Shown here in pieces: positions 14,446 to 31,250 of a stretch of DNA of 64,000 bases (position 1 is the stretch's first letter; the number at the start of each line of letters is the position of its first letter). The position numbers and the translations under genes were made by a program. Under the pieces are notes generated by a model, which searched no databases, was not told where the DNA came from, and was given only the letters and a program-made list of their open reading frames with translations. The DNA is from an uncultured Deferribacteres bacterium. Its GTDB lineage: Bacteria > Zhuqueibacterota > JdFR-76 > DREG01. The DNA lies in contig CAYXGW010000002.1 in the NCBI GenBank assembly GCA_964464595.1, positions 753-64,752 of the forward strand, in the 5' to 3' direction.

Positions 14446-16689
14446 TTATTTAATATTTTGTAAAGCCGTAATGATATCCAAGGTTCGTCTCCTGTATTCT
14501 TTTGCTGTTTGATTGGTTTGATCTAATTTGAGTATTTCATCAAATGAATCAGCAGCTGCTTGATATTGTTTTTGTGAATATAGTTGAATACCTCTTTGCA
14601 AGAGAATCGTAATTTGACGATTTTTTGCAGTTCTTATTGTACTTAGTAATGTAGTAATCTCTTGGCGCTCATGTTCCTCAGAAAGAAGTTGGATAGAAAG
14701 TTCTTCTGCTTTATTATACTGTTTGTTTGACAATGCTTTTTTTGCCTGCAACCATTTCCGGTCTCTTTCCATACGTAGTTTTGTTCTGGTTACCGCATTT
14801 GAATACATACTATTTCTCGGGTTAAATTCCCTTGCTTTCAAGTAATGTTTTAATGCTGTACTATCATCACCCTGATTATAGGCAACATCACCTAATGATT
14901 CAAATTTTTTTGCTAATTCAACACGTTCAATTTTGTTTTTCCGGATAAGATTTTTTGCCGGCAAATAATCTTTCTTTAAATTAAGAATTTCATTGCACAG
15001 TGACTCTGATAACTTAAAATTTTGATTTTTATTAGCGGATTGTGCTCTTTTTAGCAAATCATTCAAATGTCGATCAAATTGAGGCTTAAGCTGTTGAACG
15101 GCTTGAGAAGCCACTGGATTTTCCACATCCAAATTTAAAACCATTCCATATTTGTTTACTGCTTCAAGGTAATTCCCATTTGTTTCAAATTGGCTAGCTA
15201 TCTTAACCAGGCTATCGATTTGCGACTGTTTATTTTGAATGCGATTCCGAACATCTTTCAAATTTTCATTTATGGATGGATATTGAGGATCATATCTTTT
15301 AACATTCTCAAATTTACTTAAAGCAGATCGGTATTTTTTTTGAGAATAATAACCATGAGCCATGAGAGACTCTTTCTCTGCTAAGTACTTCAAAGTATCT
15401 TCTGTCATTTTTTTTGTATGCGAAATCAAGGTATCATTCGGAAATAGGTGGTGAATTCTACTAAGCACACGATTTGCATTTACGAAATCACTTTGTTCCA
15501 ACAATTCGTTAATTCTCTTTCTAACTGGATTCAATTCATTTGATGCTGAAGATCGTAATATGTTAAATTTTCTATTAGCTATTTCATTATGTGGGAATTG
15601 TTCTATAATGTTATCATATTGAATCAAGGCAAGTAATTTTTCTCCTTTTCTTTCATACTCTATCGCCGATCTTAACATCCTTTGCTCTTTTCTGGCTAAC
15701 GATTTGTACCTGTCTTCGACAATTTTGAATGTACGTTGATAGGTTTTATTCTCAGGTTGATACGCTATAGAATTACGGAAATGGAAGTATGCCTTCGCAA
15801 CTTCTTTTTTATCAAGAGAGTTCATACCCTGTTCATAATTTTTCTTTGCACGAACGGCCGGACTTTCTCCAAACTTTACATTTGCCGAGAATTGAATTTT
15901 TTCTTTGAATCTCTCATAAAAGATATCAAGCTGTAAAGATCCAAGAATCACTCCTACACCATACAACCATCTGTTTGAGTTAAAATTTGCAATGCCGGTT
16001 CGTAAAACTGTCGATTTAAAACTTTCTATTTCGATCCCTTGAATATAATCACTTCGGTTTTTTGTAAATTGAAGTTCAGAAAATGTTTGAAAAAATGAAG
16101 GTGTAATAACGTAAGAAATACCAAAATTAGCCTGCAAGGGTATTCCAAACCTACTCTTTGAAATAACCATATTTTGAATAGCAGCAGACAATCCTATTCT
16201 ATCCCAATAAATAAGCCCTCCGAAAATTCTTTCCCCAACCTTCTTAAAGGGAAAATAAGATATACCAACATTGAAGTGAGGTGAATAAGATCTTTCACGG
16301 TCAAATATCATTGAACTAAACCCTATTCTTAATCCGGATGTATAGGATTTTGCTAAACCAACACCCGCATAATCGATAGGAATCGGCCCCGGTATACGGC
16401 CAATTGTAAATCCGACAGAACCAATTCCGGGTATAAAATCTGCAATTGCAGCTTTACTGTAGAAAAAAGATTCATTCACATTTAGACTAAAACTTGGCTG
16501 TCTGGTAAAACTAAGATTGGCTGGATTCCATAAAAAAGAATATGCAGATTGCGTTAATGTAGAAGACAACCCTCCCAATGATTTTGACCTGGCATCAAAA
16601 AAAGTAAAATTATTGTATTGTCCATGCACTTCATTCAACAAAGAAAACAACAAGATTGTTGTCGCCAGTGTATTTAGTAACTTTTGCAT
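14446..16689 (-). CDS. Outer-membrane protein with a signal peptide, an N-terminal beta-barrel-like region and C-terminal TPR repeats
   Basis: The signal peptide is MQKLLNTLATTILLFSLLNEVHGQ. Residues 1 to about 270 have alternating aromatic/hydrophobic residues, typical of a beta-barrel. The C-terminal half has repeated TPR-like helical units (YNKAEEL..., YQAAADSF...). Confidence 0.55.
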   Translation of the reverse strand: MQKLLNTLATTILLFSLLNEVHGQYNNFTFFDARSKSLGGLSSTLTQSAYSFLWNPANLSFTRQPSFSLNVNESFFYSKAAIADFIPGIGSVGFTIGRIPGPIPIDYAGVGLAKSYTSGLRIGFSSMIFDRERSYSPHFNVGISYFPFKKVGERIFGGLIYWDRIGLSAAIQNMVISKSRFGIPLQANFGISYVITPSFFQTFSELQFTKNRSDYIQGIEIESFKSTVLRTGIANFNSNRWLYGVGVILGSLQLDIFYERFKEKIQFSANVKFGESPAVRAKKNYEQGMNSLDKKEVAKAYFHFRNSIAYQPENKTYQRTFKIVEDRYKSLARKEQRMLRSAIEYERKGEKLLALIQYDNIIEQFPHNEIANRKFNILRSSASNELNPVRKRINELLEQSDFVNANRVLSRIHHLFPNDTLISHTKKMTEDTLKYLAEKESLMAHGYYSQKKYRSALSKFENVKRYDPQYPSINENLKDVRNRIQNKQSQIDSLVKIASQFETNGNYLEAVNKYGMVLNLDVENPVASQAVQQLKPQFDRHLNDLLKRAQSANKNQNFKLSESLCNEILNLKKDYLPAKNLIRKNKIERVELAKKFESLGDVAYNQGDDSTALKHYLKAREFNPRNSMYSNAVTRTKLRMERDRKWLQAKKALSNKQYNKAEELSIQLLSEEHERQEITTLLSTIRTAKNRQITILLQRGIQLYSQKQYQAAADSFDEILKLDQTNQTAKEYRRRTLDIITALQNIK

Positions 16690-16694
16690 TGAAT

Positions 16695-18101
16695 TTAATA
16701 GGTAATACGGTAAATTGACACAGCATTTTTTCTACCGCTAAATTTTGCAGGTTCCATTTTAACTACAGAAAAAGACTTATCTAATTTTTGAATTACAGTT
16801 TTTGTAATCACAATATGGCCTGAACGTGCATAATTGCAAAGTTTACTGGCTAAATTTACAACATCACCAATAGCTGTATAGTCCATACGTGATTTAGCTC
16901 CCATACTACCCAAAATAGCAAACCCGAAATTAATGCCAATACCTACAGTTAAACATTCTTTCTTCTCATCTCTTCTCTCGTGATTAATTTCAATCAATCC
17001 CTTTTGAATTTGGATTGCGGCTTTAATTGCATCATCGGATGCATTCTCTCCTTGGAAAATAGCCATAAGCTGATCTCCGGCGAACTTATCAATAACGCCA
17101 TTATTATCAATAATATAACGAGATTGCATATTCAAATAAACATTTATAATATCAACAAGCGCTTCCGGTTCCATGCCTTCCGAAAGACTTGTAAAGCCTC
17201 GAATATCTGAGAACAAAACAGCAATCTCTTTCTTTATCATGGATGAAGTATCTGCATCTTGTCCGGAATGATTCTGAATCATATCGACAGTCAGAGAAGA
17301 TACAAATTTTTTCATTTGTATGTTTTCCCGGAGACTTCTCACCATACGGTTGAACTCATCGGCGAGCAATCCAATTTCATCTTTATTCTTTATTTTAATA
17401 ACTACATTCAAATTACCTTTTTCCAACTCTTTAACACCGTCGGATAGTTTCACTATATTTGATGATAATCGTTTGGAAAAGATGTTTACAATAAATACAC
17501 TTAGCAAAATTATACCTATCGTTAGCAGAAGGATTATATTTTTTGCAGTATTAAAAGCTGATTGAATCATAGCATGAGAAAAGACAATACCAGCCAATCC
17601 TGTAGTTATCTCTTCATCAATTCCATTCCGATTCGTGTTAATAACAATTTTATGTAAGTACTCTGATTTGTTATTATGTTCAATAACTTTTAAATCTTCC
17701 GTTAGAGATAAGTAATAATTATACTCGCTTTTTGTGGAGTTGATTTGTGAAAGATCAGAGTGCGCCACAATTACACTGTCTCTATCCATAACAAAAGCAC
17801 TCTCAAATCCTTCCATAACAATATCATTAATTACTTTCTGAATCGGTGCATGATTTTTTATGAGTAAATTCTCGCTGGCCACACTTGCCAAACTTTGAAT
17901 GGTTAGTCTATATATAGCTTCGACTTTTTCTCTTAGAACATATTTCCCAGCTTCCAAAACAGCCCAACTTAACAGTAGAATCATGACAATCGTAATAGAT
18001 CCAATAACAAGGATAAACTTGACTTGCAGGTTTAGGTGGAGATAAAAATCCCGAATTTTATTTTGAAGAGATTTCAAAAATAGAATTATTGAATGAATCA
18101 T
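16695..18101 (-). CDS. Membrane-anchored class III adenylate/guanylate cyclase with a periplasmic sensor region and a HAMP domain
   Basis: It has two TM segments and a HAMP region. The CYCc catalytic domain carries VLFSDIRGFTSLSE and KFAGDQLMAIF motifs. Confidence 0.8.
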   Translation of the reverse strand: MIHSIILFLKSLQNKIRDFYLHLNLQVKFILVIGSITIVMILLLSWAVLEAGKYVLREKVEAIYRLTIQSLASVASENLLIKNHAPIQKVINDIVMEGFESAFVMDRDSVIVAHSDLSQINSTKSEYNYYLSLTEDLKVIEHNNKSEYLHKIVINTNRNGIDEEITTGLAGIVFSHAMIQSAFNTAKNIILLLTIGIILLSVFIVNIFSKRLSSNIVKLSDGVKELEKGNLNVVIKIKNKDEIGLLADEFNRMVRSLRENIQMKKFVSSLTVDMIQNHSGQDADTSSMIKKEIAVLFSDIRGFTSLSEGMEPEALVDIINVYLNMQSRYIIDNNGVIDKFAGDQLMAIFQGENASDDAIKAAIQIQKGLIEINHERRDEKKECLTVGIGINFGFAILGSMGAKSRMDYTAIGDVVNLASKLCNYARSGHIVITKTVIQKLDKSFSVVKMEPAKFSGRKNAVSIYRITY

Positions 18102-18260: not shown

Positions 18261-20084
18261 TTAAAATACAGAAGAAACCTTTAAGGCTAATACTGTCATA
18301 TCATCAGCCTGGGGCATATTACCAACAAATTCTTCGATCTGATCATCTAGTTTGGCAACAATTTCCATTAATTTGTGGTTGGCCAAGCTACTAAGAAGTG
18401 GTTCTAATCTTTCTTCCCCATATTCTTCATTACTTGCATTCATGGCCTCGGTAATACCATCGGTAAACATGAACAAAACATCACCCATTTTTAATGTTAC
18501 TGTTGCTGACTGATAAGGTGCATCAGGCATAACTCCTAATATTAAACCACCGGTTTCCAAGGTCTCTAGGGATCCATCTGAATGAATTAAGTATGGAGGA
18601 TTATGACCTGCATTTGTGTATAAGATTGTTCTTTTTTTAACATCTAAAATACAATAGAAAAATGTAATAAATTTATCTAAAGTCGTATTTTTGTAAATGA
18701 TATTATTAATAATCGAAACCATTTCTTCAGGATTACGATAATCAATGGCAAGAGCCCTTAAGCTAGCTTGAAGATTTGCCATTAACATTGCTGCAGGTGT
18801 ACTTTTCCCCGAGACATCCGCAATTGCAATACCATAAATATCATCCGACAATTTAATACAATCATAATAATCTCCCCCAACTTCGCGACTGGAAACATTG
18901 CGGCCAAATATTTCGATACCGGAAATTTCAGGAAGATCGCTGGGAAGCAGTTGTTTTTGAATATCCCGGGCAATCATTAGTTCATCTTCTAGTCGTTGTT
19001 TCTCCAGCATCTCGTCAACTAATTGCGCATTCTCTATGGAAATAATGGTTTCATTGCCAAGAACTTCAAGAAATTCAAGCTCATCCTTGCTAACTTCTAG
19101 ATTATTAATTTTTTTGCCAATTCCAATAATCCCCAGGACTCGGTCCTTACTCACCATCGACAAAAGAATTTCGATCCCACCATTTATTAATATCTCTATT
19201 GACTCTTTGAGACCAGGCTGATCTTTAATATCCTCAAGTTTAATGTATTTTTTCCCTGAAGCAAAAACTTCAATAAGGTTTGATTTTATTGCACTAAAGT
19301 CTAATTCCTTGATTTCAAGGTTTGCTCCTTTAGCAACAACCATATTAAATTGGTCATGGCTGTCAATCATGATAATACATTTATTGATTAACAATTCCCC
19401 CATAATAGCAAATGATAGAACCTGCGCAATTTTATCTTCTTCAAGAGATGAATTCAATTCGCGGCTTATCTCGAACATTGTGTTTAATTCTTGAATTTTC
19501 TTGTCTAATTTTTTATTCGCTTCACGAACCTCATCAAACAACAAAGCCTTATCAACTGCAATTACAGCTAGATTAGCTAAGGACTCCAAAAAATCTATCT
19601 CATCTTGTGCAAAAGACATCTTACCAAATTTTTTACCATATACCAACATTCCAAGGTAGTTACTATCTGCAATCATCGGAATTATTATTTCTAATCCGTG
19701 TTTTCTGAACTCATCAAAGAATGGTTCACTGCGGTTTTCCAGTTTGTCTCTTGTTAGTGAGTTTTTTGGGATTTCCTGAAGTGAGAATTGCCTTCCTAAC
19801 AATTGAGTGGACAATCCTTTTACATTTTTTATATGTAAAATATTATTAGTATCCACTAGTAAGACCATTCCCTTACTTATCATCAACCTTCCCATTGGTG
19901 TTAACAAAACGTTATCCAAAATTGTCCTGAGTTCAAGACTGGAATTTAGAATTTTATTAATTTCAAAAAGGGAGGTTAATTCGAGGTATTTAATCTTGAG
20001 ATCATCAAACCCTTCAGATGTTTGTTTATGTATTTTGTTCTGCTTTCTCTGAGGATTGGGAATCGACTTATTTTCTTTTGCCAT
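18261..20084 (-). CDS. Tandem-GAF PP2C (SpoIIE/RsbU-type) serine phosphatase
   Basis: Two GAF-like regions are followed by a PPM phosphatase domain (GGDYYD, ADVSGKSTPAAMLMA, FMFTDGITEA). Confidence 0.85.
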   Translation of the reverse strand: MAKENKSIPNPQRKQNKIHKQTSEGFDDLKIKYLELTSLFEINKILNSSLELRTILDNVLLTPMGRLMISKGMVLLVDTNNILHIKNVKGLSTQLLGRQFSLQEIPKNSLTRDKLENRSEPFFDEFRKHGLEIIIPMIADSNYLGMLVYGKKFGKMSFAQDEIDFLESLANLAVIAVDKALLFDEVREANKKLDKKIQELNTMFEISRELNSSLEEDKIAQVLSFAIMGELLINKCIIMIDSHDQFNMVVAKGANLEIKELDFSAIKSNLIEVFASGKKYIKLEDIKDQPGLKESIEILINGGIEILLSMVSKDRVLGIIGIGKKINNLEVSKDELEFLEVLGNETIISIENAQLVDEMLEKQRLEDELMIARDIQKQLLPSDLPEISGIEIFGRNVSSREVGGDYYDCIKLSDDIYGIAIADVSGKSTPAAMLMANLQASLRALAIDYRNPEEMVSIINNIIYKNTTLDKFITFFYCILDVKKRTILYTNAGHNPPYLIHSDGSLETLETGGLILGVMPDAPYQSATVTLKMGDVLFMFTDGITEAMNASNEEYGEERLEPLLSSLANHKLMEIVAKLDDQIEEFVGNMPQADDMTVLALKVSSVF

Positions 20085-20116: not shown

Positions 20117-20548
20117 TTATGAGGTAATGTATTTAGTCATCTCTATAACGTTCTTTTTAGTGGGCTGAATCGAAAACTTTACTTCGTCCATTAAAACTTT
20201 TATTAGATGAAGGCCAAGTCCACCTTTCCTAAATTCAGTAAGATAAGCACCCATGTCGTCAACACCAATATTATTATACTCAAATCCACTACCCTTGTCT
20301 ACAACAGAAACCACCATTTTTTTTGAGTTTAATTCTACATCGATATGGACATCTTTTGATTTTTCTCCTTTATAAGCGTGTTTCATAACGTTTGTGCAAG
20401 CTTCATCAACTGAGAGTTGTATTTTGTTAACGCTATCATCGTTAAAACCCGCTGTTTTGGCAATTTTCCCTACAAAATCACGAATTAAGTCAAGGAATTC
20501 ATCGTCACTTGGGATTACAAGTGAAAATTTTTTAACTTTACTCGGCAA
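20117..20548 (-). CDS. Anti-sigma regulatory factor-type Ser/Thr kinase (RsbW/SpoIIAB-like HATPase_c)
   Basis: It is 143 aa and carries an N-box (EACTNVMKHAY) and G-boxes (DKGSGF, GGLGLHLI). Confidence 0.75.
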   Translation of the reverse strand: MPSKVKKFSLVIPSDDEFLDLIRDFVGKIAKTAGFNDDSVNKIQLSVDEACTNVMKHAYKGEKSKDVHIDVELNSKKMVVSVVDKGSGFEYNNIGVDDMGAYLTEFRKGGLGLHLIKVLMDEVKFSIQPTKKNVIEMTKYITS

Positions 20549-20667: not shown

Positions 20668-21015
20668 CTATTTTCTAAAGTTTTGCACAGCTTCACTTTC
20701 ATCATCCACAATTTCGTACAAGCTTGGAAATCCTAACAAATCGAATATTTTAAACACTTTCTCAGACATGTTGGACATTTTGATATCACCATCATTCGAT
20801 CTGACATCTTCGATGAAACCCATAAAGACACCTAAACCTGCACTACTGATATAGGCTAATTTCTCACAATTTACGATGATCTTAAACCTGGTTTCATCAA
20901 CTAATTGTTTCAATGCTTCTTCAAAACTTGGCGCCGTGTGTGCATCTAAATATCCATCTAAATTCAAAACAGATATTTCATCAACATCTTTTCTCGTCAC
21001 AGCAAATTCACTCAT
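20668..21015 (-). CDS. STAS-domain anti-sigma-factor antagonist (RsbV/SpoIIAA-like)
   Basis: It is 115 aa with the STAS fold and a phosphorylatable serine region (ISSAGLGVFMG). Confidence 0.75.
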   Translation of the reverse strand: MSEFAVTRKDVDEISVLNLDGYLDAHTAPSFEEALKQLVDETRFKIIVNCEKLAYISSAGLGVFMGFIEDVRSNDGDIKMSNMSEKVFKIFDLLGFPSLYEIVDDESEAVQNFRK

Positions 21016-21033: not shown

Positions 21034-23145
21034 TTAGGAATCAACTTTAACAACAATCATTGAGAGATCGTCGTGTTTTTTTGCATTTTTTGTAAATTTA
21101 GAAACATCATAAATTATTTTATTTAGAATTTCTCCCGCTGGCTTCTCATAGGTTTCATTGAGGACTTTCATTAAACGTTCCAATCCATATTCTTCTAACT
21201 TTGAATTTCTGGCTTCGTCTAGACCGTCCGTAAAAAATAGAAAAAAATCATTTTTATGCCAGCCTATTTCAATTTCCTCAAGAATTTTGTTAAATACAGT
21301 TCCACTATCAAGTGCGACTCCAATGCCAGGGGGTTGTAAGAATAAGGACTGTTTTTCCTTTGAAGAGAAATGAATAAACGGGCCATGCCCCGCCCGAGAA
21401 ATTGTTACTTTTTTCTCCTTTAAATCAAAAATAGCGTATATCATAGTTACGAATGTTTTTTGATCTAATGTTTCATATAAAGTTTTATTCACTTTTTCCA
21501 GCAAGATTCTTGGGGAATCGTAAAGGCTGGCATATGCACTTACTATTCCTTTTAATTCTGCCATATAAAATGCAGCAGAAAGCCCTTTTCCGGAAACATC
21601 TGCTATAACCACACCAAGTCTATCCTCACCAAGATCAATAAAATCAAAATAATCACCACCAACTTCGGTAGCCATTAAGCAATGTGCATCAATATCCAGT
21701 GAACCCTTTTCTGGCATTGCTTTTGGAAGAAGTCTCATTTGAGTATTACGGGCAACCATTAATTCTTGTTCTATCCTCTCCTTTTCAATCGATTGCTCAA
21801 TAAGCCTGGAATTTTCAATTGCCACAGAAGCTTGATTTGCAAAAGCTTGCAGCATTTCACGATCGTCCTGTTCGAAACCATATTCTTTTTCTTTCGTCGC
21901 ATACAAAATACCCATAACTCCATCCTTAGAAGTAAGCGGAACTCCTAAAATTGAACCTATGTTATTTTGATAATTTAAAATATATTCTGAACGACTATCT
22001 TTGGAAACATCATTCACTAAAACCGATTCTTTATTTTCGAAAATCCAACCGCTTAATCCTTCATTATTTTTGAAATGCATATTGGAAAGTTCTTTATTAG
22101 TGAGATTATGATATGATACAACACTTAGTTCGCCGTCTTCCTTTTTCATTTCAAGCCAGCTTGCGTCCGGGTTTAGAACATCATGTGTTAAGGTTGTCAC
22201 TTTTGATATCAACTCATCATAGCTCAAAACTGAACTAATATCTCTACTCAGGTTTTGTAAAGATTCAATCTCTCTAATTTTTTTCTCAAATATACTAGCT
22301 GTTGGTAAATGAAGCAATAAATTCAATTCCGCCAATACCAAGTAAGAACACATAAAATAAAAAGTAAAACTATTAAAGGACCCCAAAGTAAAACTATATG
22401 TATTAATCTCCTGAAAAATGTTGGATTCATAAACAAGAATCGCTCCCGGAATTAGAAACAATCCTGCCCAGCAAGCTATATACTTCTGTCTTTTATTTAG
22501 GTATGTCACCCAAGAAGTTCTAAAAGATAACAAAAATATTATTAAAAGCAGCAAGCTAAAAAACACCCATTCTAATGGCGTTTGACCTTGAAATGACCAG
22601 TCTGTTTTGAACATTTTAATTGTGTAATGCCTGTATAATACATACACAACAAATAAAAAAAGTCCGAACCGGAATAATTTATAAGTTTTTGCTTTACTTT
22701 TGTAATGAACTAAATCGCGCAGTAAGAAAAGTAAAACAATTAGAAATAAAGTAACAAAAACAGCAGTAAAAGTAGCACGAAAATCCAATTGAAGTGATCC
22801 AAGTAAATTTAAAGTACTTTCGGTGGATTTTTCGTTTTGGCTGGAAATAATCATTTTGGAAAGAGCTACTGAAATAAATAATCCCAAAGCTGCAAAAAAA
22901 GCAGTCTTAAGTTTATAAACGATATGCTGCTCCTGTTTACTGTGACGTTTATAAAGAAGAGATGTAGCCAATAAAAACACAGCTACTATTAGCGTTTCTC
23001 GCAGCCAATAAATAGGTGTTGGGAGTGTATCACGAAAAAGAAAAGGTAGATCAATAATGAAAATCAAAATGATTACGATCGAGATGGTTCCAATCAGAAA
23101 ATAATTACTTTTTTGTTGTAAAAACCGAATGATTGGTTTAATCAT
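21034..23145 (-). CDS. Polytopic-membrane (about 8 TM) GAF PP2C (SpoIIE/RsbU-type) serine phosphatase
   Basis: The N-terminal roughly 300 aa contain about 8 hydrophobic helices, followed by GAF and PPM domains (GGDYFD, ADVSGKGLSAAFYMA, FFTDGLDEA). The gene overlaps the upstream lipoprotein gene by 4 bp (ATGA). Confidence 0.8.
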   Translation of the reverse strand: MIKPIIRFLQQKSNYFLIGTISIVIILIFIIDLPFLFRDTLPTPIYWLRETLIVAVFLLATSLLYKRHSKQEQHIVYKLKTAFFAALGLFISVALSKMIISSQNEKSTESTLNLLGSLQLDFRATFTAVFVTLFLIVLLFLLRDLVHYKSKAKTYKLFRFGLFLFVVYVLYRHYTIKMFKTDWSFQGQTPLEWVFFSLLLLIIFLLSFRTSWVTYLNKRQKYIACWAGLFLIPGAILVYESNIFQEINTYSFTLGSFNSFTFYFMCSYLVLAELNLLLHLPTASIFEKKIREIESLQNLSRDISSVLSYDELISKVTTLTHDVLNPDASWLEMKKEDGELSVVSYHNLTNKELSNMHFKNNEGLSGWIFENKESVLVNDVSKDSRSEYILNYQNNIGSILGVPLTSKDGVMGILYATKEKEYGFEQDDREMLQAFANQASVAIENSRLIEQSIEKERIEQELMVARNTQMRLLPKAMPEKGSLDIDAHCLMATEVGGDYFDFIDLGEDRLGVVIADVSGKGLSAAFYMAELKGIVSAYASLYDSPRILLEKVNKTLYETLDQKTFVTMIYAIFDLKEKKVTISRAGHGPFIHFSSKEKQSLFLQPPGIGVALDSGTVFNKILEEIEIGWHKNDFFLFFTDGLDEARNSKLEEYGLERLMKVLNETYEKPAGEILNKIIYDVSKFTKNAKKHDDLSMIVVKVDS

Positions 23146-24416
23146 TGTGAAGATATCCTGATTAGATTAGGAGTCCCTAGCGCATTCCACTTTCCTATAA
23201 CTTTTCCATCTTCCGATATTTTTGTAACATTAAAATTACCCGCGTCTGAAACAATGCAACTTCCATCATATTCATCAACATCCAGAGATGTTGGATTCGT
23301 AAATCCGTCTAATTTAAGAATAATTGAACCATTCTTATCCAGTTTAACCAATTGGGAATTGTTGAAACCAGAACGCAAATCAAGCGCCCAACAATCTCCC
23401 GTTTTTTGATTTATATTAACTTGATGAACAAAATTAAAAGCTCCAACAGAAATAAGTAATTCTAAGTTGGAACTAAAATGTTTTACCATGGAAACATCTG
23501 CCACCCAAATAGAACCATCCTGGTAATTAATAGCTACATCTTCAGGTTGATCCAGATTCTCAATAGTGGATTTGGTAGTGTCAGTCAAATTAAATCCTGT
23601 AACTGTTTTGTCCAAAACGTCTGAAATCCAACAAATACCCGATGAAATATCGACCGAAATAGAAACCGGGTTAGAGAAATCTTCATCTATAACGAACAGA
23701 GTGCCTGATGTATCGCCAAAAGCTAGTTTTTTGGAATTTTGAAGAAGTATCCACAATCTATTTCTAGTTGGGTCAAAATCAAGGTCTAAAGGTGAATCAC
23801 TGATGTTAAACTTTTTTACTATTTCTCCATCCAGAGACATGTGCGCGACTTGGTTTAAGAAAAAATCGCTTACCCAAATTCCCTGTCCATTACCGATATT
23901 AGCCATTCCTGAAATATCAAAAAAATCACTTCTAGAAAAAAGGGTATGAGAAGCATCATGTGTTAATTGAAAAAGTTTACCAGTTGTTCTAATCCCAACC
24001 CACATACGAGATGGTCCGGGTGTAATGAAAACTTCATCAGATAGAGGGCCCTCATTAAATTCAGTAATTGCCTGAATTTTATACCTATGGGTAACATCAA
24101 ATAAAACTTCTTGATCATCATAGCGAGATGTATTACCAGGAACCACTGCAATTTCTACAAACCCGCTATCCTGCGATGTTTGCCTAAATATCTTAGTTCC
24201 AATATACCCGTTAATTTCGATATCATCCCAAGTTAAAGAAACGACTCTATCCAAAGAAATTACAGATAAACCTGTCAGCTTTCCCTGGGTAAATGGATTT
24301 TCCGGATCTAAAGGATTGTCGTGCTCACGATCTGCACAACCGTTTATTGCGACAATGAACAATCCTGCGTAAAATAAATAATGTGATTTTTTAAATTTGA
24401 ATAAATTCATCAGCAT
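23142..24416 (-). CDS. Lipoprotein with an Fn3-like domain and a beta-propeller (NHL/YVTN-like) domain
   Basis: It has a signal peptide and a lipobox-like AINGC. Repeated DxSG/IWV blades follow. Its stop overlaps the start of the membrane PP2C gene. Confidence 0.55.
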   Translation of the reverse strand: MLMNLFKFKKSHYLFYAGLFIVAINGCADREHDNPLDPENPFTQGKLTGLSVISLDRVVSLTWDDIEINGYIGTKIFRQTSQDSGFVEIAVVPGNTSRYDDQEVLFDVTHRYKIQAITEFNEGPLSDEVFITPGPSRMWVGIRTTGKLFQLTHDASHTLFSRSDFFDISGMANIGNGQGIWVSDFFLNQVAHMSLDGEIVKKFNISDSPLDLDFDPTRNRLWILLQNSKKLAFGDTSGTLFVIDEDFSNPVSISVDISSGICWISDVLDKTVTGFNLTDTTKSTIENLDQPEDVAINYQDGSIWVADVSMVKHFSSNLELLISVGAFNFVHQVNINQKTGDCWALDLRSGFNNSQLVKLDKNGSIILKLDGFTNPTSLDVDEYDGSCIVSDAGNFNVTKISEDGKVIGKWNALGTPNLIRISSQ

Positions 24417-24715: not shown

Positions 24716-26707
24716 TTAAGACAAATTCATTCTTTTCAACACCTCTTTTATTCTGCCTGAACGTGTTTTATTTCCATTTGAATTCTTGCGACTGCGATAT
24801 AACAATTGTAATCTTTGATAATCGCTTTTAATTTTTGCATATATTAATTTATTTTCTATAGTCACTGCAACTAGCCGAGCGATTTTTTCAAGAATTTGAA
24901 CTAATTCTGTATAGGGTCTTAGTTTATTGGTTGGGTCATCTAATATAAAAAATCCGATAATTTTCTTTTTCCGTGTTGTGATTGGGATAAGTAAAATATC
25001 TTCACAATGCCACATTTTCGGATCGGTTACGGATGTAATAGGCGTCCCATAAATTCTTTTAATAATATTCAGAGGATTATTACGTTCTTGCACAAGATAT
25101 GAATGTGAAATTCGGCATTTCTGTTTCAAAAGCGGAATAATTTCTTCAATAGAAAAATGCAACCTACTTAATATTCTGGCCTTTTCTTTATTCTCTAAAG
25201 CAATTGATTTTAAATTTAATCGGTGGGTGGATTTACTAAAAATTGCGAGAATGGGCAAATTATAACCCAATGAAAGTTTAATGGTCCAAACGATCTCCCG
25301 AAGTAGATTTTCCAACGGCAAATCGATGCAAAATGTTTCCAAAATTGTAAAGATTTGCTTAAAATGTTTATGCTTATTTTCCAATTTTGAAAAGCGCGTA
25401 TGGAATTCATAAAGACCGGAAATGTAATTGGATAATATTTCCGCTCGTTCCAAAATTTGGGTAGATGGGGTTTTGCCTGTTTCAGGGTTCTCAAGAATAA
25501 TAAAACCCAGGCAATTTTCATCGGAAGTCCGCAAATTTATAAAAAGACGATCCCCTTTTTCCCAATTATTACCTTCTTTCCATAGTTTGGATTGAAACAA
25601 TTCCACACCAGGCTTTCGTTCTGTTTCATTCAGCACACTTTGGTGAACAAATCGAACAAATTCCGATCTTGGAAATAATTTTCGCACTTCTTTTTCTGTG
25701 AAAAAATCCGAGCGAATTTCTGTTTTATCTCCGTGGATTTTAGCGCCAATTTCTATTTCATTTTGATATTGGTGCTTAGTTGTATGATACAAAAATAAAG
25801 ATGCATACCCGAACTTAAAATTTCTTTTCGGAATTTCAGCTAATTTCATATGAAATAGCTGAATTAAATTTTTGCGAAAGTAATTATTTAATTGATATAA
25901 CTCATGAAATAAAGGTTTTATATCGGTTACTCGTCTTTCTGTTGCTTGTGATTCTTCTTTCGACAATACTTTAAAATAACCACGGAAACCTGAGAAGAGA
26001 GCTTCCGGCCGTGTATATGGGGTTAATTGAAGTTCAACCGGAATAATACCTCTTGTTTTATGGATAACTTCCGTGTCAATCATTAATGTATCCTGACGGC
26101 CTTCTATAGAAGAATGCCATTGGTAGAATATTTCTCGATCTTCGTCGGCAATAAAATCCATCAAATAGGTTTTGTAGAATTCACTAGAGGAAAGCCCAAG
26201 GATATTTTGTAGATTATCATCAAAAGAAATAAAGCGGCCACTTTCGTTAATTTCAAAAAAGGAAGTTATATGAGATAAAGTTGATTCAACTTGAAAATCA
26301 AATGCAATATTTTTTGTTGATACATTTTGTTCTTTTGCTCGATCTAAAGTAAAAGGAATTGCAGTTACGGCACCCTCAACCTTTACAATATAATCAAATA
26401 CTCCACTCTTTACTGCATCCTCCGCTATCCGCTCCTGTTTTTCATCTACAAGGAGTACAAGGGGTATCTTTTTGGCGAAATCCAGTATATTCTCATAGAA
26501 CTGATTGCCGTTGGTTTTAATTAATTCAGCATCAAAAAGAAATGCATGATAATTATTTTGATCAAGAGAATTTTTTATCTCTTTAAGACTGCTAGCCTTC
26601 TCTAATTTATATTTGTTTTGATGAAATTGTAATACTCGGACAATAGAGCTTAGAAATGCCTTGTCATGGCCGATATAGAGTACATTGGTTGGTTGTTCAG
26701 ATGGCAT
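24716..26707 (-). CDS. Receiver-like (REC) - PAS - GAF-like regulatory protein with no recognisable output domain
   Basis: The N-terminus has a receiver-like fold (VLYIGHDK...FLFDAEL). A PAS-like middle region and a GAF-like C-terminus follow. Confidence 0.45.
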   Translation of the reverse strand: MPSEQPTNVLYIGHDKAFLSSIVRVLQFHQNKYKLEKASSLKEIKNSLDQNNYHAFLFDAELIKTNGNQFYENILDFAKKIPLVLLVDEKQERIAEDAVKSGVFDYIVKVEGAVTAIPFTLDRAKEQNVSTKNIAFDFQVESTLSHITSFFEINESGRFISFDDNLQNILGLSSSEFYKTYLMDFIADEDREIFYQWHSSIEGRQDTLMIDTEVIHKTRGIIPVELQLTPYTRPEALFSGFRGYFKVLSKEESQATERRVTDIKPLFHELYQLNNYFRKNLIQLFHMKLAEIPKRNFKFGYASLFLYHTTKHQYQNEIEIGAKIHGDKTEIRSDFFTEKEVRKLFPRSEFVRFVHQSVLNETERKPGVELFQSKLWKEGNNWEKGDRLFINLRTSDENCLGFIILENPETGKTPSTQILERAEILSNYISGLYEFHTRFSKLENKHKHFKQIFTILETFCIDLPLENLLREIVWTIKLSLGYNLPILAIFSKSTHRLNLKSIALENKEKARILSRLHFSIEEIIPLLKQKCRISHSYLVQERNNPLNIIKRIYGTPITSVTDPKMWHCEDILLIPITTRKKKIIGFFILDDPTNKLRPYTELVQILEKIARLVAVTIENKLIYAKIKSDYQRLQLLYRSRKNSNGNKTRSGRIKEVLKRMNLS

Positions 26708-26893: not shown

Positions 26894-28531
26894 CTATGCG
26901 TAAGAATACTCTTGATTTGAAATGATAGAAGTACTTTGTATCGCTATCGTTTTTAAAACATTCTGAACATCTTCGATAATATTTTCCTGAATTATGCTGT
27001 TACCCAGTTTATTATTTGCATTTTTAATATCTTCAAAGAGAATTTTTTCTTCTGATTTCAATCGGTCTAGCAATAAATCCACACTTTGATTAATCTCAAT
27101 AAGTGATTTCATTTTTGTTCTCATTGACTTAATCTCATTCTCAATGTAAGAGTAATGAGAAATAGAACATGAGTTATTCTCAGAAATTAATTTCTTTCCA
27201 AAAGAGCTAACTTCATCCAACCTTTTAAAAACCTCATTCGTTAGATGATGAGCATCCAATGAGAGTTTGTGAATTTCTTCGGCAAGTACACCAATTGCCC
27301 TACCTTTCTCTCCAGCGCTTGCTGCTTTTATCTGTGCATTCACACCAATTAGTTCTAAACTCGAACCAATTTCATTAATTGAACCAATGTAAGAAGAAAG
27401 ATTAGCTGCCTTTTTTGCTAACGTAGACAAGGTAGCAGATATTTCCTGCTCTACTTTGTCATTTTTAAAAGCAAATTCAGCAATCTCCTGTATTTCTTTT
27501 TCGACTTCCATCAAGAATGATGTTTCAGATTCGAAACTAGCATTCAAGGATTCTTGTACTTGATTGTCCTCTTTTAGAAAATCTTTTATCTCAAAAAATG
27601 TAATGGCGACTTGATCATTTGTATGTTGTCTATTATTCCAAATGTTTATTAACTCATTTGACTGCAATTCACATTGACTAATGGCATGTTGGACTTCATT
27701 AGAAAATTTGACCGGATCGTCACCATAAAGCGGCAATTCATTAAATCGCTTCGACATCTCCTGCAAAGAAGAAACTAAAGTATTTGTTTTCTGAACACAG
27801 GGTTTATCTATCTCAACAAAGCTTAGAACTTTTGCTGTTGTTTCATGAATTTTCTTTGTCAATTTTGAAATGTATTTTGCAAACCTAATTCTTGTATCTT
27901 GACTATTAATAACAGATTCCAGATCTTTTTGAGCAGTTTCAAGCATTCCATCTATACTAACATTTTGTTTACTAACGGAATCGTACAATCTCTCAAGAGA
28001 TTTACCAATATGCTCTGTTATTTCTTCAGATTGGGACTGCATTTCCGGATATTTCAATTTAATCTGATCTGCTAATTTTTCCACGTCTTCTGCAATCTTC
28101 ACGAAGCCATTATTCTCAATATTCAATCTGGTGCCTTCTACTCTTGTGAATGTACCGAGCATTTTTAGCATTTTTACAATATTGCTGAATCCTTCCAATG
28201 AAGTGGAGAAATCAGAGAGGTATTCAGTAATTTTCACCAAAAGTTTTAAATTTTCCTCTGCTTTTTCCTGAGTAAGCATAAAATGAATACAGATAGAATT
28301 TAAAATGCTCCAAATACCATCTAACGCTGTTTGGACCCCTTCCCCGGATATCCTTTCTGCAGTAATGGAAGATAGCGTCGATAACTCTTTTGATCGAAAC
28401 TCAATATCTTGCAAATCTGATCTACCGGAAAGCAATTCCTCTATATATTTAGAAACCATGTTCTTTAGACGATTTGCTAGTGTAGAACTTTCCTGGCTTG
28501 ATTCCGCACAGAACTTGTTGATAGCTTCCAT
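26894..28531 (-). CDS. Soluble coiled-coil protein carrying a methyl-accepting chemotaxis protein (MCP) signalling domain
   Basis: NAQIKAASAGEKGRAIGVLAEEIHKLS matches the highly conserved MCP signalling core ([27 protein letters not shown]). There are no TM segments and the rest is predicted coiled coil. Confidence 0.6.
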   Translation of the reverse strand: MEAINKFCAESSQESSTLANRLKNMVSKYIEELLSGRSDLQDIEFRSKELSTLSSITAERISGEGVQTALDGIWSILNSICIHFMLTQEKAEENLKLLVKITEYLSDFSTSLEGFSNIVKMLKMLGTFTRVEGTRLNIENNGFVKIAEDVEKLADQIKLKYPEMQSQSEEITEHIGKSLERLYDSVSKQNVSIDGMLETAQKDLESVINSQDTRIRFAKYISKLTKKIHETTAKVLSFVEIDKPCVQKTNTLVSSLQEMSKRFNELPLYGDDPVKFSNEVQHAISQCELQSNELINIWNNRQHTNDQVAITFFEIKDFLKEDNQVQESLNASFESETSFLMEVEKEIQEIAEFAFKNDKVEQEISATLSTLAKKAANLSSYIGSINEIGSSLELIGVNAQIKAASAGEKGRAIGVLAEEIHKLSLDAHHLTNEVFKRLDEVSSFGKKLISENNSCSISHYSYIENEIKSMRTKMKSLIEINQSVDLLLDRLKSEEKILFEDIKNANNKLGNSIIQENIIEDVQNVLKTIAIQSTSIISNQEYSYA

Positions 28532-28579: not shown

Positions 28580-29515
28580 TTATGTATAAAAATATTTACG
28601 AATTGTTACTCTATTGCCTTGTTGATTAAATCTAACCTCATCCATAAGGTTTTTTATCATTTTCAAACCTAGTCCATGGATAGCCCCCACCTCCTCATCG
28701 CTAGTGTCAAATGAAGCCACTCCAGAACCCTCATCTTCAACCGAAAACTGTACGAAAGATTGATCAATTGTCATTTGGATATTAATTTGCCGATCTGCAT
28801 AAAATGCATCATTCAATCTTTCCTGCTTAGCTTTTTCAAACATTGTGCAATTATCTTTAACTAGAAATTCTTCTTTCCATTCGGATTTTAAAGCGAGGTT
28901 ACCATGCTCCTGGGCATTTTGAACAGTTTCCTGAAATGCAAGCAGCACATTTTGAATTCCCAAATAATTCATTTTTGTATATTTCTGCAATAAATCTACT
29001 AATTTAATATTCATTGTATCTATATCTAAATTACCTGAACGAACAGTAAAATTTACATTTAGGTGATTTACTAAAGGTTCAAACCCAGCACTTACCTGCT
29101 TTTGATTCTCTAATTTGTTTATTTTAAATAGAAGTTCCTCCAACTTTGAATCGCTGAAAGGCGGTTCCAGAAAATGAATAGCATTGAAAATACTACCTTC
29201 TAAATTCGAATCATAATTTGAAACAGAATCAATCAAAATAATTTCCAGGTCTGGATTAATCGATCCAATTATTTTAAGGAATTCCAAACAATCCAAATTT
29301 TGTGTCTCAGCATCATATAAAACAAGATTCACATCTCGAGTTACTTCCAGATGATAAATCGCATCCTTACAACTTTTAATGTTCTCAATATGGCAGCCAT
29401 TCTGCTTTAGAGTTTTATTAAGAAAAACACTTCTTTTTAATCCGTCTGCACTAATTACAAGGATGTTTTTTGATAGTTTTGTGGGTTCATTTAAAAATAA
29501 TTCAAAGCATTTCAT
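28580..29515 (-). CDS. Receiver domain fused to an anti-sigma-factor-type HATPase kinase (RsbW-like)
   Basis: The N-terminal REC-like fold is ILVISADG...LVLYDAETQNLD...IILID. The C-terminal HATPase_c has an N-box (ETVQNAQEHGN) and G-boxes (DEGSGV, HGLGLKMI). Confidence 0.65.
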   Translation of the reverse strand: MKCFELFLNEPTKLSKNILVISADGLKRSVFLNKTLKQNGCHIENIKSCKDAIYHLEVTRDVNLVLYDAETQNLDCLEFLKIIGSINPDLEIILIDSVSNYDSNLEGSIFNAIHFLEPPFSDSKLEELLFKINKLENQKQVSAGFEPLVNHLNVNFTVRSGNLDIDTMNIKLVDLLQKYTKMNYLGIQNVLLAFQETVQNAQEHGNLALKSEWKEEFLVKDNCTMFEKAKQERLNDAFYADRQINIQMTIDQSFVQFSVEDEGSGVASFDTSDEEVGAIHGLGLKMIKNLMDEVRFNQQGNRVTIRKYFYT

Positions 29516-29604
29516 AATATTTTTCTTATTTGTAAGTGTTTATATACAAATAAGTTATTGCCTTAACTTTTTTCATTAATTACAAAATATAATTAATAAA
29601 GCTC

Positions 29605-29913
29605 TCAAACGTGTCGGATCTTAATTAGCTTGTCCAAATTTATTGAACTGAACAAAGTATGTAAATTATTATGTATACCCGCCACAGCTAATTCACGGTT
29701 TTGTTTTTTGAGCTGATGTAGAAGAACCAAAATTTTACTGATACCGGAACTAGTTATTGTAGGTACGTAAGTCAAGTCCACGACCACATTCTTCCCTGAT
29801 TCATTCAGTGCATTATTAAATGCATTCTTAAGATTTTCTCCGTCAGATTCATTTATTGGCCCGGATATTTTTACCTGCACCTCAGATTCTGATTTTGAAA
29901 TAGATATATCCAT
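29605..29913 (-). CDS. STAS-domain anti-sigma-factor antagonist
   Basis: It is 102 aa with the STAS fold and a conserved Ser region (ITSSGISKILVLL). Confidence 0.7.
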   Translation of the reverse strand: MDISISKSESEVQVKISGPINESDGENLKNAFNNALNESGKNVVVDLTYVPTITSSGISKILVLLHQLKKQNRELAVAGIHNNLHTLFSSINLDKLIKIRHV

Positions 29914-29921
29914 AACTTCTC

Positions 29922-31250
29922 CTAGTTTTTCAACTCTAATAGCTGTTGATGTTTATTTGCCTTAGATATTTCGTTCGATTTTATTTTACCGGTTATTTCT
30001 AATGCCAATAGAGACGCATCGTCATCTAAACTTGAATTTCCATGCCAAGTTGTAACTTCCTTCAGTAACTTGGGTAGAGAATTTTCAAAACTCGTTTTGC
30101 GGTTTTCGTTTAGGAACTTGACAAAACGAATAAGACCAAACTCCTCACCATTGGATTCTTTAGCCTCTGTAATGCCGTCTGAGTACAAAAAAAGCCGATC
30201 CCCTGGTTCTAGACAAACTTTGTAATCATTGTAAGCAACCTCCTCCGTAAATCCTATGGGAAAATTAGACGACTTTAAAGTGGTTGGATTACTTGAATTC
30301 CGGATTAAAACAGGGTCCGGATGACCGGCTGAGGAAAATATAAATTCGTAAGTTTCAATGTTTAGAATTCCATAAATGAGAGTAAAAAATTGACCGGTTT
30401 CCATATCGACTGGAAATTGTTGGTTTAATTGATGCAATACTTTAGCAGGAGAATTAATTTGAAAGGTTGAGGACCCTTTGATTTTCTTTCTTAAAATAGA
30501 TGATTGATTTTGAACAGGAGACAAAAGATGGCTTAGAGTAACAGATTTTAATGCAGAAGCTACGCCATGACCACTTACATCTAATACAAAAAAGCCGATG
30601 TGTTTATTATCGAGCCAATATAAATTTAGAATATCACCCGCTAGTTCTGTACAGGGTTTAAATTGCCAATCAAATTTAATCCCTTCGACTTCAGGAAGGG
30701 CTTTTGGCAAAAGCGCTTCTTGTATCTTGGCAGCAGCTTCAAGATCTTTTTTCATCCGATTATTGGCTTCGGTAATAATATGAATGTTTTTTTCTTCCAG
30801 CTCTTTGTTCTTGTATGCAAGTGTACGCTCCAGGTTTGTGATTCGCTCTCCGGCACGCACTCTTGCAAGTAACTCACTATGATTAAATGGTTTTGTTAAA
30901 TAATCATCTACTCCCAGGTCAATAGCCTGAACAACATCCTTTTTCTCTCCTTTTGCAGTGATCATGATAATGTAAACATAGTGATTCAATTTAGATGAAC
31001 GAATTCGCCGAGTTAGCTCTAAGCCATTTAATTTCGGCATCATCCAATCAACAACCATTAATTGAGGAGGATCAGGTTTTTGCATCTCTTGCCAAGCTTC
31101 TAATCCATTTCGCGCTAAAACAATATTATACCCTTTATTTTCAAAAATAATTTTCAACACTTGCAAAATCGTTGGTTCATCGTCAGCAATTAATATTTTA
31201 AGTTTACTACTAAAATCTTTATATTCTGCATTAGAATTTGAATCCGTCAT
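29922..31250 (-). CDS. Response-regulator PP2C phosphatase (REC + SpoIIE/PPM; RsbY/RssB-like)
   Basis: The N-terminal REC domain has the conserved ILIADDE ... VVDWMMPKLNG ... K motifs. The C-terminal PPM domain follows (AGDILN, LDVSGHGVASALKS, LYSDGITEA). Confidence 0.85.
   Translation of the reverse strand: MTDSNSNAEYKDFSSKLKILIADDEPTILQVLKIIFENKGYNIVLARNGLEAWQEMQKPDPPQLMVVDWMMPKLNGLELTRRIRSSKLNHYVYIIMITAKGEKKDVVQAIDLGVDDYLTKPFNHSELLARVRAGERITNLERTLAYKNKELEEKNIHIITEANNRMKKDLEAAAKIQEALLPKALPEVEGIKFDWQFKPCTELAGDILNLYWLDNKHIGFFVLDVSGHGVASALKSVTLSHLLSPVQNQSSILRKKIKGSSTFQINSPAKVLHQLNQQFPVDMETGQFFTLIYGILNIETYEFIFSSAGHPDPVLIRNSSNPTTLKSSNFPIGFTEEVAYNDYKVCLEPGDRLFLYSDGITEAKESNGEEFGLIRFVKFLNENRKTSFENSLPKLLKEVTTWHGNSSLDDDASLLALEITGKIKSNEISKANKHQQLLELKN

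What the first reader, a model, noticed from the sequence alone, without database searches (positions are those of the whole stretch)
21034..24416. Extracytoplasmic beta-propeller lipoprotein translationally coupled (ATGA overlap) to an 8-TM GAF-PP2C phosphatase
The lipoprotein has a signal peptide and lipobox followed by Fn3-like and beta-propeller domains. Its stop overlaps the start codon of a polytopic-membrane SpoIIE-type phosphatase. This looks like a two-protein sensor in which a periplasmic or cell-surface binding protein feeds a membrane RsbU-like phosphatase. That is an input route into partner-switching not seen in the classic Bacillus systems.
Basis: partly seen in the sequence, partly recalled or inferred. 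Interest (0 to 1): 0.55.

Follow-up and report, generated by a model that had tools for sequence, protein, structure and literature searches.

The report
Propeller lipoprotein paired with membrane phosphatase
A predicted lipoprotein with a propeller-shaped domain outside the cytoplasm is always encoded directly in front of a membrane-embedded protein phosphatase that heads a phosphorylation-switch signalling cassette in KSB1/Calditrichota-type bacteria, so it is probably an accessory outside sensor for that switch, though no contact between the two has been shown.

Summary
ORF 23142..24416(-) has a signal helix, a family-conserved lipobox Cys27, a beta-sandwich and a 7-bladed NHL/YVTN propeller (AF2 pLDDT 91). 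Its TGA overlaps the ATG of ORF 21034..23145(-), an 8-helix membrane domain plus GAF plus an intact PP2C domain.

The pairing is not chance. In all 10 distinct loci with a lipoprotein homologue and readable downstream DNA (87% to 19% identity), the next gene is a polytopic membrane PP2C. Five have the same ATGA overlap. STAS, an RsbW-like kinase and a cytosolic GAF-PP2C usually follow.

The lipoprotein also stays with a different membrane PP2C type (about 810 aa, with its own periplasmic domain). It is not universal: two stand-alone paralogues of the 8TM phosphatase and two Bacteroidota cassettes lack it.

The 8TM domain has no Pfam family and no PDB structural relative, and its periplasmic loops are only 7-14 residues long.

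Physical coupling and its sign are untested. Separate precedents exist: accessory lipoproteins (LpqB-MtrB) and the extracytoplasmic NHL propeller of PknD, whose kinase phosphorylates a STAS protein. I rate it a new variant of a known kind, of moderate interest.

The parts
23142..24416 (-). Predicted lipoprotein, 424 aa. It has a signal helix, lipobox Cys27, the conserved linker C-A-D-R-x-H/R-x-N-P-L-D-P-x-N-P-x-T-x-G (27-49), a beta-sandwich (51-131) and a 7-bladed NHL/YVTN propeller (137-422). H153-D154-x-x-H157 is invariant.
23142..23145 (-). ATGA junction: the lipoprotein's TGA stop overlaps the phosphatase's ATG start by 4 nt. An AGGA lies about 10 nt upstream.
   Evidence: the same overlap is in L001, L002, L013 and L018
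21034..23145 (-). Membrane phosphatase, 703 aa. It has an 8-helix membrane domain (aa 1-295, no Pfam family, no PDB relative), GAF (308-444) and SpoIIE/PP2C (507-701). The motifs GGDY, DVSGKG, TDG and HDD are intact.
20668..21015 (-). STAS anti-sigma-antagonist-type protein, 115 aa. The I-S-S-A-G-L-G motif is likely to carry the phosphorylatable Ser. It starts 18 nt after the phosphatase stop.
20117..20548 (-). RsbW/SpoIIAB-type Ser kinase (HATPase_c_2), 143 aa.
18261..20084 (-). Cytosolic GAF-GAF-PP2C phosphatase, 607 aa. It is a probable second input branch onto the same STAS protein and is conserved in most related cassettes.
16695..18101 (-). TM-HAMP class III nucleotide cyclase, 468 aa. 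It is conserved after the cassette in the closer relatives (L001, L002, L013) and replaced by REC-PP2C in L004 and L008.
24716..26707 (-). REC-PAS(-GAF) protein, 663 aa. It lies upstream and is orthologous in L001, L004 (24% identity over 615 aa, E 2e-52), L008 and L013, so it is probably part of the same conserved island.

Best explanation
The pair is the membrane-proximal input stage of a STAS/RsbW-type partner-switching cassette found in KSB1/Calditrichota-like bacteria.

The lipoprotein is exported and lipid-anchored through Cys27. It presents a beta-sandwich and a 7-bladed NHL/YVTN propeller in the periplasm.

The phosphatase has a dedicated 8-helix membrane domain with almost no periplasmic surface, followed by cytoplasmic GAF and PP2C domains.

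Proposed mechanism (inferred):
1. The propeller binds a ligand or reports an envelope state.
2. Through its membrane-proximal part, it changes the conformation of the phosphatase's helical bundle. The nearly invariant linker after the lipid anchor is a candidate contact.
3. The signal passes along the long TM8-to-GAF helix to the PP2C domain.
4. The PP2C dephosphorylates the phosphorylated form of the adjacent STAS protein.
5. STAS then sequesters the RsbW-like kinase, or acts on a non-sigma target such as the neighbouring cyclase.

The cytosolic GAF-GAF-PP2C probably provides a second, intracellular input onto the same STAS protein.

Shown here: the domain anatomy, the gene overlap and the conserved adjacency. 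Inferred: physical contact, the sign of regulation, the ligand and the output.
For: Anatomy.

Adjacency: 10 of 10 distinct loci with a lipoprotein homologue and readable downstream DNA have a polytopic membrane PP2C as the next gene. These are the window, L001, L002, L004, L006, L008, L013, L016, L018 and L020. Gaps range from -4 to +35 nt, and the ATGA overlap occurs in 5 loci. Four further lipoprotein/phosphatase pairs share contig lengths, which suggests shared contigs.

Context: the flanking genes differ between loci, while the order lipoprotein, PP2C, STAS, kinase, GAF-PP2C persists.

Partner swap: the lipoprotein stays directly in front of a second PP2C type of about 810 aa, with 1 TM, a periplasmic domain of about 220 aa, further TMs and no GAF (L004, L006, L016). 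That type shares only the PP2C domain with the window protein. The constant factor is therefore a membrane PP2C, not one particular membrane fold.

Only exported component: every other gene in the cassette is a signalling protein, and the lipoprotein is the only one with a globular extracytoplasmic domain.

Sensor-less phosphatase: its periplasmic loops are 7-14 aa. Its membrane domain occurs almost only in proteins of about 660-715 aa, the length of this architecture (88 representative clusters).

Precedent for a sensor role: the propeller's closest natural PDB relative by sequence is the extracellular sensor domain of M. tuberculosis PknD (1rwi, E 7.8e-18).

Competent switch parts: the PP2C catalytic motifs are invariant across orthologues and the STAS protein has the Ser motif.
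Against: No interaction was tested. No multimer prediction was available, and model coordinates could not be inspected.

The lipoprotein is absent next to several 8TM-GAF-PP2C orthologues:
- L014 and L017, which are stand-alone.
- L015 (Bacteroidota) and L019 (Flexithrix), which keep STAS and the kinase.
The phosphatase can therefore work without it.

Periplasmic loop lengths do not clearly separate phosphatases with and without the lipoprotein. Only one loop is shorter, in the Bacteroidota forms.

The window's lipobox has an atypical Asn at position -2.

Whether the lipoprotein sits in the inner or the outer membrane is unknown.

Propellers of this class can also be enzymes: Vgb lyase and SGL give weak Pfam hits in relatives.
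Confidence: 0.55

Rival explanations
1. The lipoprotein is an accessory modulator rather than a ligand sensor. It would be a constitutive inhibitor, stabiliser or localisation factor of the membrane phosphatase, as LpqB is for MtrB or YycH/YycI are for WalK. Alternatively it would report lipoprotein trafficking or envelope integrity, as NlpE and RcsF do. The primary signal would then be sensed in the membrane or by the GAF domain.
For: The same genomic evidence as for the main explanation. The 8TM domain is conserved and works without the lipoprotein in Bacteroidota, so it may be the real sensor. The most conserved part of the lipoprotein is the membrane-proximal linker just after the lipid anchor, which suits a tether or docking role. 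LpqB is described as an accessory lipoprotein that reduces MtrB activity (PMC5845573).
Against: A 7-bladed propeller with an invariant H-D-x-x-H motif, related to the PknD sensor domain, is more elaborate than a simple tether would need. No data here distinguish this reading from ligand sensing.
Confidence: 0.22
2. The lipoprotein is a co-transcribed periplasmic enzyme or binding protein of the lyase, lactonase or YncE type. It would be an output or a metabolic companion of the pathway and would not talk to the phosphatase directly.
For: Relatives give weak Vgb_lyase, SGL and NHL Pfam hits. PDB profile hits include streptogramin B lyase. The invariant H153, D154 and H157 could be catalytic or metal-binding residues.
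Against: The conserved cassette contains no other metabolic or transport genes. Overlap with the start of the phosphatase gene, or a very short gap, is kept across deep divergence and across a swap of the PP2C membrane module. That pattern is typical of stoichiometric partners. The Vgb_lyase score in the relative tested (L013, 49.1 bits) is below Pfam's cut-off of 50.
Confidence: 0.15
3. The adjacency has no functional meaning and reflects inherited gene order in a few closely related genomes.
For: The family is small (23 clusters in 5.8 billion proteins). It is confined to a few related, mostly uncultured lineages.
Against: Adjacency holds down to 19-26% protein identity, with differing flanking genes and with two different PP2C architectures.
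Confidence: 0.05

Closest known systems
MtrAB-LpqB 'three-component system' of Actinobacteria. Similar cases recalled from my own knowledge are KinB-KapB, CseA-CseBC and NlpE-CpxA.
   Same: An accessory lipoprotein is encoded in the same operon as a membrane signalling enzyme and modulates it from outside the cytoplasm. LpqB interacts with MtrB and reduces its activity (PMC5845573). From my own knowledge, LpqB also has a propeller domain.
   Different: The partner there is a histidine kinase, not a PP2C phosphatase. LpqB is a different family, and no homology was found here. The gene order differs: lpqB lies downstream of mtrB.
M. tuberculosis PknD (extracellular NHL propeller, kinase, STAS protein Rv0516c)
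   Same: The propeller is the closest natural PDB relative by sequence (1rwi, E 7.8e-18; the PknD-derived 'Pizza' designs score up to 5e-38). In PknD it is an extracytoplasmic sensor domain whose signal ends in phosphorylation of a STAS anti-anti-sigma homologue (PMC1847690).
   Different: In PknD the propeller has 6 blades and is fused through one TM helix to a Hanks-type kinase. Here it has 7 blades, sits on a separate lipoprotein with an extra beta-sandwich, and is paired with a PP2C phosphatase. The similarity is at the level of NHL repeats, not orthology.
RsbU/RsbV/RsbW and RsbP/RsbQ of Bacillus subtilis
   Same: The core is a PP2C phosphatase, a STAS protein and a GHKL Ser kinase. Two phosphatases probably converge on one STAS protein. 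One phosphatase, RsbP, is co-transcribed with an accessory sensor protein, RsbQ (my own knowledge).
   Different: The Bacillus inputs are cytoplasmic (the stressosome with RsbT, and RsbQ). No sigma factor is encoded in this island. The phosphatase here is polytopic and carries a GAF domain.
Chlamydia RsbU and Pseudomonas SiaA (SiaABCD)
   Same: Both are membrane PP2C phosphatases that bring extracytoplasmic or membrane signals into a kinase/phosphatase/STAS-like switch. SiaABCD has a nucleotide cyclase output (SiaD). This is reminiscent of the HAMP-cyclase conserved downstream here.
   Different: Those phosphatases carry their own periplasmic domain, and no separate lipoprotein is described. 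The NCBIfam SiaA model hits only the cytosolic paralogue, and far below cut-off (48.5 bits against a cut-off of 700).

Membership tests
Bacterial lipoprotein (Lgt/LspA substrate) | N-terminal signal peptide with a positively charged n-region and a hydrophobic h-region | tested here: met
   K8, K9 and K10 are followed by YLFYAGLFIVAI. AF2 models a helix at 8-26.
Bacterial lipoprotein (Lgt/LspA substrate) | Lipobox [LVI][ASTVI][GAS]C with an invariant Cys | tested here: inconclusive
   The window has I-N-G-C, where Asn at -2 falls outside the standard patterns. Cys is conserved in 20 of 21 relatives, position -1 is almost always G, A or S, and 12 of 20 pass a PROSITE-like rule. SignalP and LipoP were not available.
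NHL/YVTN-type beta-propeller | Repeated four-stranded blades forming a closed propeller, with an NHL sequence signature | tested here: met
   Pfam NHL scores E 1.3e-6, above its cut-off. AF2 gives 28 strands, which make 7 blades, at pLDDT >90. Foldseek matches 1l0q, YncE and BtuG2. The PDB profile search hits PknD and the Pizza designs.
PPM/PP2C phosphatase of the SpoIIE/RsbU type | SpoIIE domain with the metal-binding Asp motifs (GGDY, DVSGKG, TDG, HDD) | tested here: met
   PF07228 scores E 1.4e-41. D498, D516, D640 and D692/D693 are invariant in 38 orthologues.
Partner-switching module (RsbU-RsbV-RsbW type) | PP2C phosphatase, STAS protein with a phosphorylatable Ser, and a GHKL Ser kinase encoded together | tested here: met
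   PF07228, PF01740 and PF13581 are found in consecutive genes. The STAS protein has the motif ISSAGLG.
Partner-switching module (RsbU-RsbV-RsbW type) | A target (classically a sigma factor) that the kinase/anti-sigma factor sequesters | tested here: not met
   No sigma-factor gene lies in the 16.7-31.2 kb island or in the related cassettes. The target may be encoded elsewhere or may not be a sigma factor.
Accessory-lipoprotein 'three-component' sensor (LpqB-MtrB type) | Physical interaction of the lipoprotein with the membrane enzyme, and an effect on its activity | not testable with these tools
   Only conserved gene order and translational overlap are available.
Known membrane sensor modules (7TMR-DISM, 5TMR-LYT, MASE and others) | A match of the TM domain to a curated family or a solved fold | tested here: not met
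   No Pfam hit better than E 1. No PDB sequence hit. No Foldseek hit with E <= 0.001, and TM-scores are below 0.21.

The most novel reading that the evidence does not exclude
A previously undescribed three-part input device for PP2C partner switching. A lipid-anchored propeller protein docks, through its nearly invariant post-anchor linker (C-A-D-R-x-R-x-N-P-L-D-P-x-N-P), onto polytopic membrane phosphatases. It thereby turns an extracellular ligand or envelope cue into STAS dephosphorylation. The 8-helix domain would be a new signal-transducing membrane fold. The output may be a nucleotide cyclase rather than a sigma factor.
Probability: 0.35. Interest if true: 0.6.

Novelty: new variant of a known kind. 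Interest (0 to 1): 0.5.

Why it matters
Partner-switching cascades are widespread, but for most of them the input is unknown. Here a rigidly conserved gene pair points to a specific and testable input: an extracytoplasmic propeller lipoprotein acting on a membrane PP2C that has no sensor domain of its own.

If confirmed, the 'accessory lipoprotein' principle, known for histidine kinases, would extend to PP2C/STAS switches. It would also give a function to an uncharacterised 8-helix membrane domain. And it would offer a first handle on signalling in poorly known FCB-related phyla (KSB1, Calditrichota).

The interest is limited in three ways. The idea recombines known principles, the lineage is largely uncultured, and nothing beyond genomic association supports the coupling.

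Tried and rejected
1. Genome survey by motif scan. The first attempt, with the full alignment, failed because it had no conserved stretch. A smaller alignment found only 4 loci in GTDB representative genomes, 3 of them cut at contig ends and uninformative. The metagenome scan found one locus. Most of the survey therefore rests on look-ups of exact proteins.

2. A word-indexed search with the TM domain alone found only 3 proteins and missed the query itself. It was replaced by the exhaustive phmmer search and a full-length search.

3. The promoter and terminator scan of 16-32 kb gave no more sites than shuffled sequence and was not used.

4. I tested whether periplasmic loop lengths of the 8TM domain separate phosphatases with and without the lipoprotein. 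They do not, apart from one shorter loop in the Bacteroidota forms. A cruder hydropathy comparison had hinted at a difference.

5. I looked for the post-anchor NP-x-DP motif in other ORFs of the window and of the fetched loci. It occurs only in this family, so nothing suggests a general sorting signal. The sample is small.

6. I considered a linker-fusion pseudo-multimer AF2 job and dropped it.

7. I considered SiaA/SiaABCD membership and rejected it, because the scores are far below cut-off.

8. Literature searches for a lipoprotein combined with PP2C partner switching found nothing directly relevant.
Full report
**1. Observation**

All genes discussed are on the minus strand. ORF 23142..24416 encodes 424 aa and ORF 21034..23145 encodes 703 aa. 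The junction reads ...tcacaATGAtt..., so the TGA of the first gene overlaps the ATG of the second by 4 nt, and an AGGA lies about 10 nt upstream. The phosphatase start is real, because its first residues align with 37 orthologues.

The 424-aa protein begins MLMNLFKFKKSHYLFYAGLFIVAINGC. This gives a basic n-region, a hydrophobic h-region and Cys27. The window's lipobox (I-N-G-C) fails the strict patterns at position -2. However, Cys followed by A-[D/E]-R is present in 20 of 21 relatives, 12 of 20 pass a PROSITE-like rule, and extending mis-called homologues upstream gives LTGC, LFSC and STGC.

The AF2 model is confident (pLDDT 91.3, pTM 0.84). It shows a signal helix at 8-26, an extended linker at 27-50, a beta-sandwich at 51-131, and 28 strands that form a 7-bladed propeller at 137-422.

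Foldseek gives the following matches:
- YVTN propeller plus PKD domain of an archaeal S-layer protein (1l0q)
- FN3-plus-propeller ectodomains (Sevenless, ROS1)
- YncE
- the surface lipoprotein BtuG2

A profile search of PDB sequences gives the NHL propeller of the M. tuberculosis PknD sensor domain (E 7.8e-18) and the PknD-derived Pizza designs.

The 703-aa protein has 8 hydrophobic segments with K/R-rich alternate loops, consistent with N-in/C-in. AF2 models 8 long helices at pLDDT 85.7. GAF covers residues 308-444 and SpoIIE/PP2C covers 507-701, and the catalytic Asp motifs are invariant. The one caveat is the atypical -2 residue of the lipobox.

**2. Context**

The pair sits in a signalling island at about 16.7-31.2 kb. 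Downstream of the pair, in order:
- STAS protein (20668..21015, motif ISSAGLG)
- RsbW-type kinase (20117..20548)
- cytosolic GAF-GAF-PP2C (18261..20084)
- TM-HAMP class III cyclase (16695..18101)
- TPR protein (14446..16689)

Upstream of the pair:
- REC-PAS(-GAF) protein (24716..26707)
- soluble MCP-signal protein
- a second small switch made of REC-HATPase_c_2, STAS and REC-PP2C (28580..31250)

No sigma factor is encoded in the island. The closest named relative belongs to a candidate division KSB1 MAG. Its lipoprotein is 87% identical and its phosphatase falls in the same 90%-identity cluster as the window's.

**3. Is the pairing conserved?**

The lipoprotein family is small: 23 clusters among 5.8 billion proteins.

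I examined neighbourhoods of homologues at 87, 38, 34, 30 and 26% identity. I also examined neighbourhoods reached from the phosphatase side. In two of those, unannotated upstream ORFs proved to be family members by profile comparison, with probabilities of 99.4 and 100. One further metagenomic locus was added.

In all 10 distinct loci the gene immediately downstream is a polytopic membrane PP2C. The gap is -4 nt (ATGA) in five loci and 3-35 nt in the others. Four more lipoprotein/phosphatase pairs share contig lengths. Flanking genes differ between loci. In most loci, STAS, the kinase and a GAF-PP2C follow. A REC-PAS-GAF orthologue is often upstream.

In L004, L006 and L016 the gene that follows the lipoprotein is a different PP2C of about 810 aa. 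It has one TM helix, a periplasmic region of about 220 aa, then 8-9 further TM helices, and no GAF domain. It shares only the PP2C domain with the window protein. The lipoprotein therefore tracks membrane PP2Cs as such.

**4. The pairing is not universal**

The 8TM-GAF-PP2C family is larger than the lipoprotein family. It has about 45 full-length clusters and 88 representative clusters, almost all of 660-715 aa.

- Orthologues in L014 and L017 stand alone, with no lipoprotein and no STAS gene.
- A Bacteroidota MAG (L015) and the cultured Flexithrix dorotheae (L019) keep PP2C, STAS and the kinase, but have no lipoprotein.

The lipoprotein is thus an accessory acquired in a KSB1/Calditrichota-like subgroup.

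**5. The membrane domain**

It has no Pfam hit, no PDB sequence hit and no structural relative (no Foldseek hit at E <= 0.001, TM-scores below 0.21). The most conserved residues lie in the cytoplasmic loops (LRDLIxYKxK and SFRTxWVNYLNKRQK) and in the TM8-GAF connector (LLHLPTA). The periplasmic loops are 7-14 residues long. The phosphatase therefore has no extracytoplasmic sensor domain of its own.

**6. Mechanism**

The best-supported reading is a two-protein input stage. The lipid-anchored propeller senses something outside the cytoplasm, either a ligand or an envelope state. It then modulates the helical bundle of the phosphatase, which sets PP2C activity towards the phosphorylated STAS protein. 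The cytosolic GAF-GAF-PP2C would give a second input, much as RsbU and RsbP converge on RsbV (my own knowledge).

The nearly invariant post-anchor linker C-A-D-R-x-R-x-N-P-L-D-P-x-N-P-x-T-x-G is the most conserved stretch of the lipoprotein. Among the sequences held, it occurs only in this family. It is kept with both PP2C types. It is a candidate docking element, and the invariant H153-D154-x-x-H157 in blade 1 is a candidate ligand or metal site.

All of this is inference from anatomy and gene order. Contact, the sign of regulation, the ligand, inner- versus outer-membrane location and the output are untested.

The rivals are:
- a non-sensing accessory modulator or tether of the LpqB, YycH/I or NlpE type;
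- a co-transcribed periplasmic enzyme;
- meaningless inherited synteny, which the data disfavour.

**7. Comparison with known systems**

Accessory lipoproteins that modulate membrane sensors are known. LpqB reduces MtrB activity (PMC5845573).

Extracytoplasmic input into PP2C/STAS switches is known where the phosphatase carries its own periplasmic domain. Examples are Chlamydia RsbU and SiaA of SiaABCD.

An extracellular NHL propeller on a kinase that phosphorylates a STAS anti-anti-sigma homologue is known in M. tuberculosis PknD (PMC1847690). That propeller is the nearest natural PDB relative by sequence.

I did not find a separate lipoprotein dedicated to membrane PP2C phosphatases in the literature searched. 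I therefore classify this as a new variant of a known kind.

**8. Verdict**

Interest is about 0.5.

Noticed in passing
window 28580..31250 (-), plus 26894..28531 (-): A second, smaller partner-switch-like set lies upstream. It comprises REC-PP2C (29922..31250), STAS (29605..29913), a REC-like protein fused to an RsbW-type HATPase_c_2 domain (28580..29515), and a soluble MCP-signal-domain protein with no hydrophobic segments noted. The same order is present in the KSB1 relative L001.
   Followed up: partly
L004:9249-11684, L006:9311-11743, L016:2527-4974: A second family of membrane PP2C phosphatases of about 810 aa has one TM helix, a periplasmic region of about 220 aa with no Pfam match, 8-9 further TM helices and no GAF. 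It follows the same lipoprotein. Its multi-TM part gives a weak Rce1-like/CPBP hit (PF02517, E 0.007). A relative, P0113, carries PF02517 plus SpoIIE in the precomputed annotation.
   Followed up: partly
window 24270..24338 (-), lipoprotein aa 27-49: The stretch just after the lipid-anchor Cys (C-A-D-R-x-R-x-N-P-L-D-P-x-N-P-x-T-x-G) is nearly invariant in relatives that share only 26-40% identity overall. This is unusual for a lipoprotein tether. Its role (docking, sorting or something else) is unknown.
   Followed up: partly
window 16695..18101 (-) and 14446..16689 (-): A TM-HAMP class III nucleotide cyclase and a 747-aa TPR protein are conserved directly after the cassette in L001, L002 and L013. 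In L004 and L008 a REC-PP2C takes the cyclase's place. This hints at a cyclic-nucleotide output similar to SiaABCD rather than a sigma factor.
   Followed up: no
window 10204..11523 (-): A further soluble GAF-PP2C phosphatase (439 aa) lies beyond a molybdenum-cofactor gene pair (MoaA-like at 13432..14421, MoaC-MoaB fusion at 12501..13409). Together with the three in the island and the REC-PP2C at 29922..31250, this makes five PP2C genes in 21 kb.
   Followed up: no
L002:5574-7956, L013:2160-4676, L020 upstream: In one subgroup, a DUF362 gene and a Memo-AMMECR1 fusion gene are inserted between the REC-PAS gene and the lipoprotein gene. The arrangement recurs in three loci and is unexplained.
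   Followed up: no
proteins P0084, P0092, P0117, P0126: Calditrichota-type metagenomes also encode PP2C phosphatases of about 930 aa that carry PDZ domains. These may be another kind of extracytoplasmic input to PP2C signalling in the same lineages.
   Followed up: no
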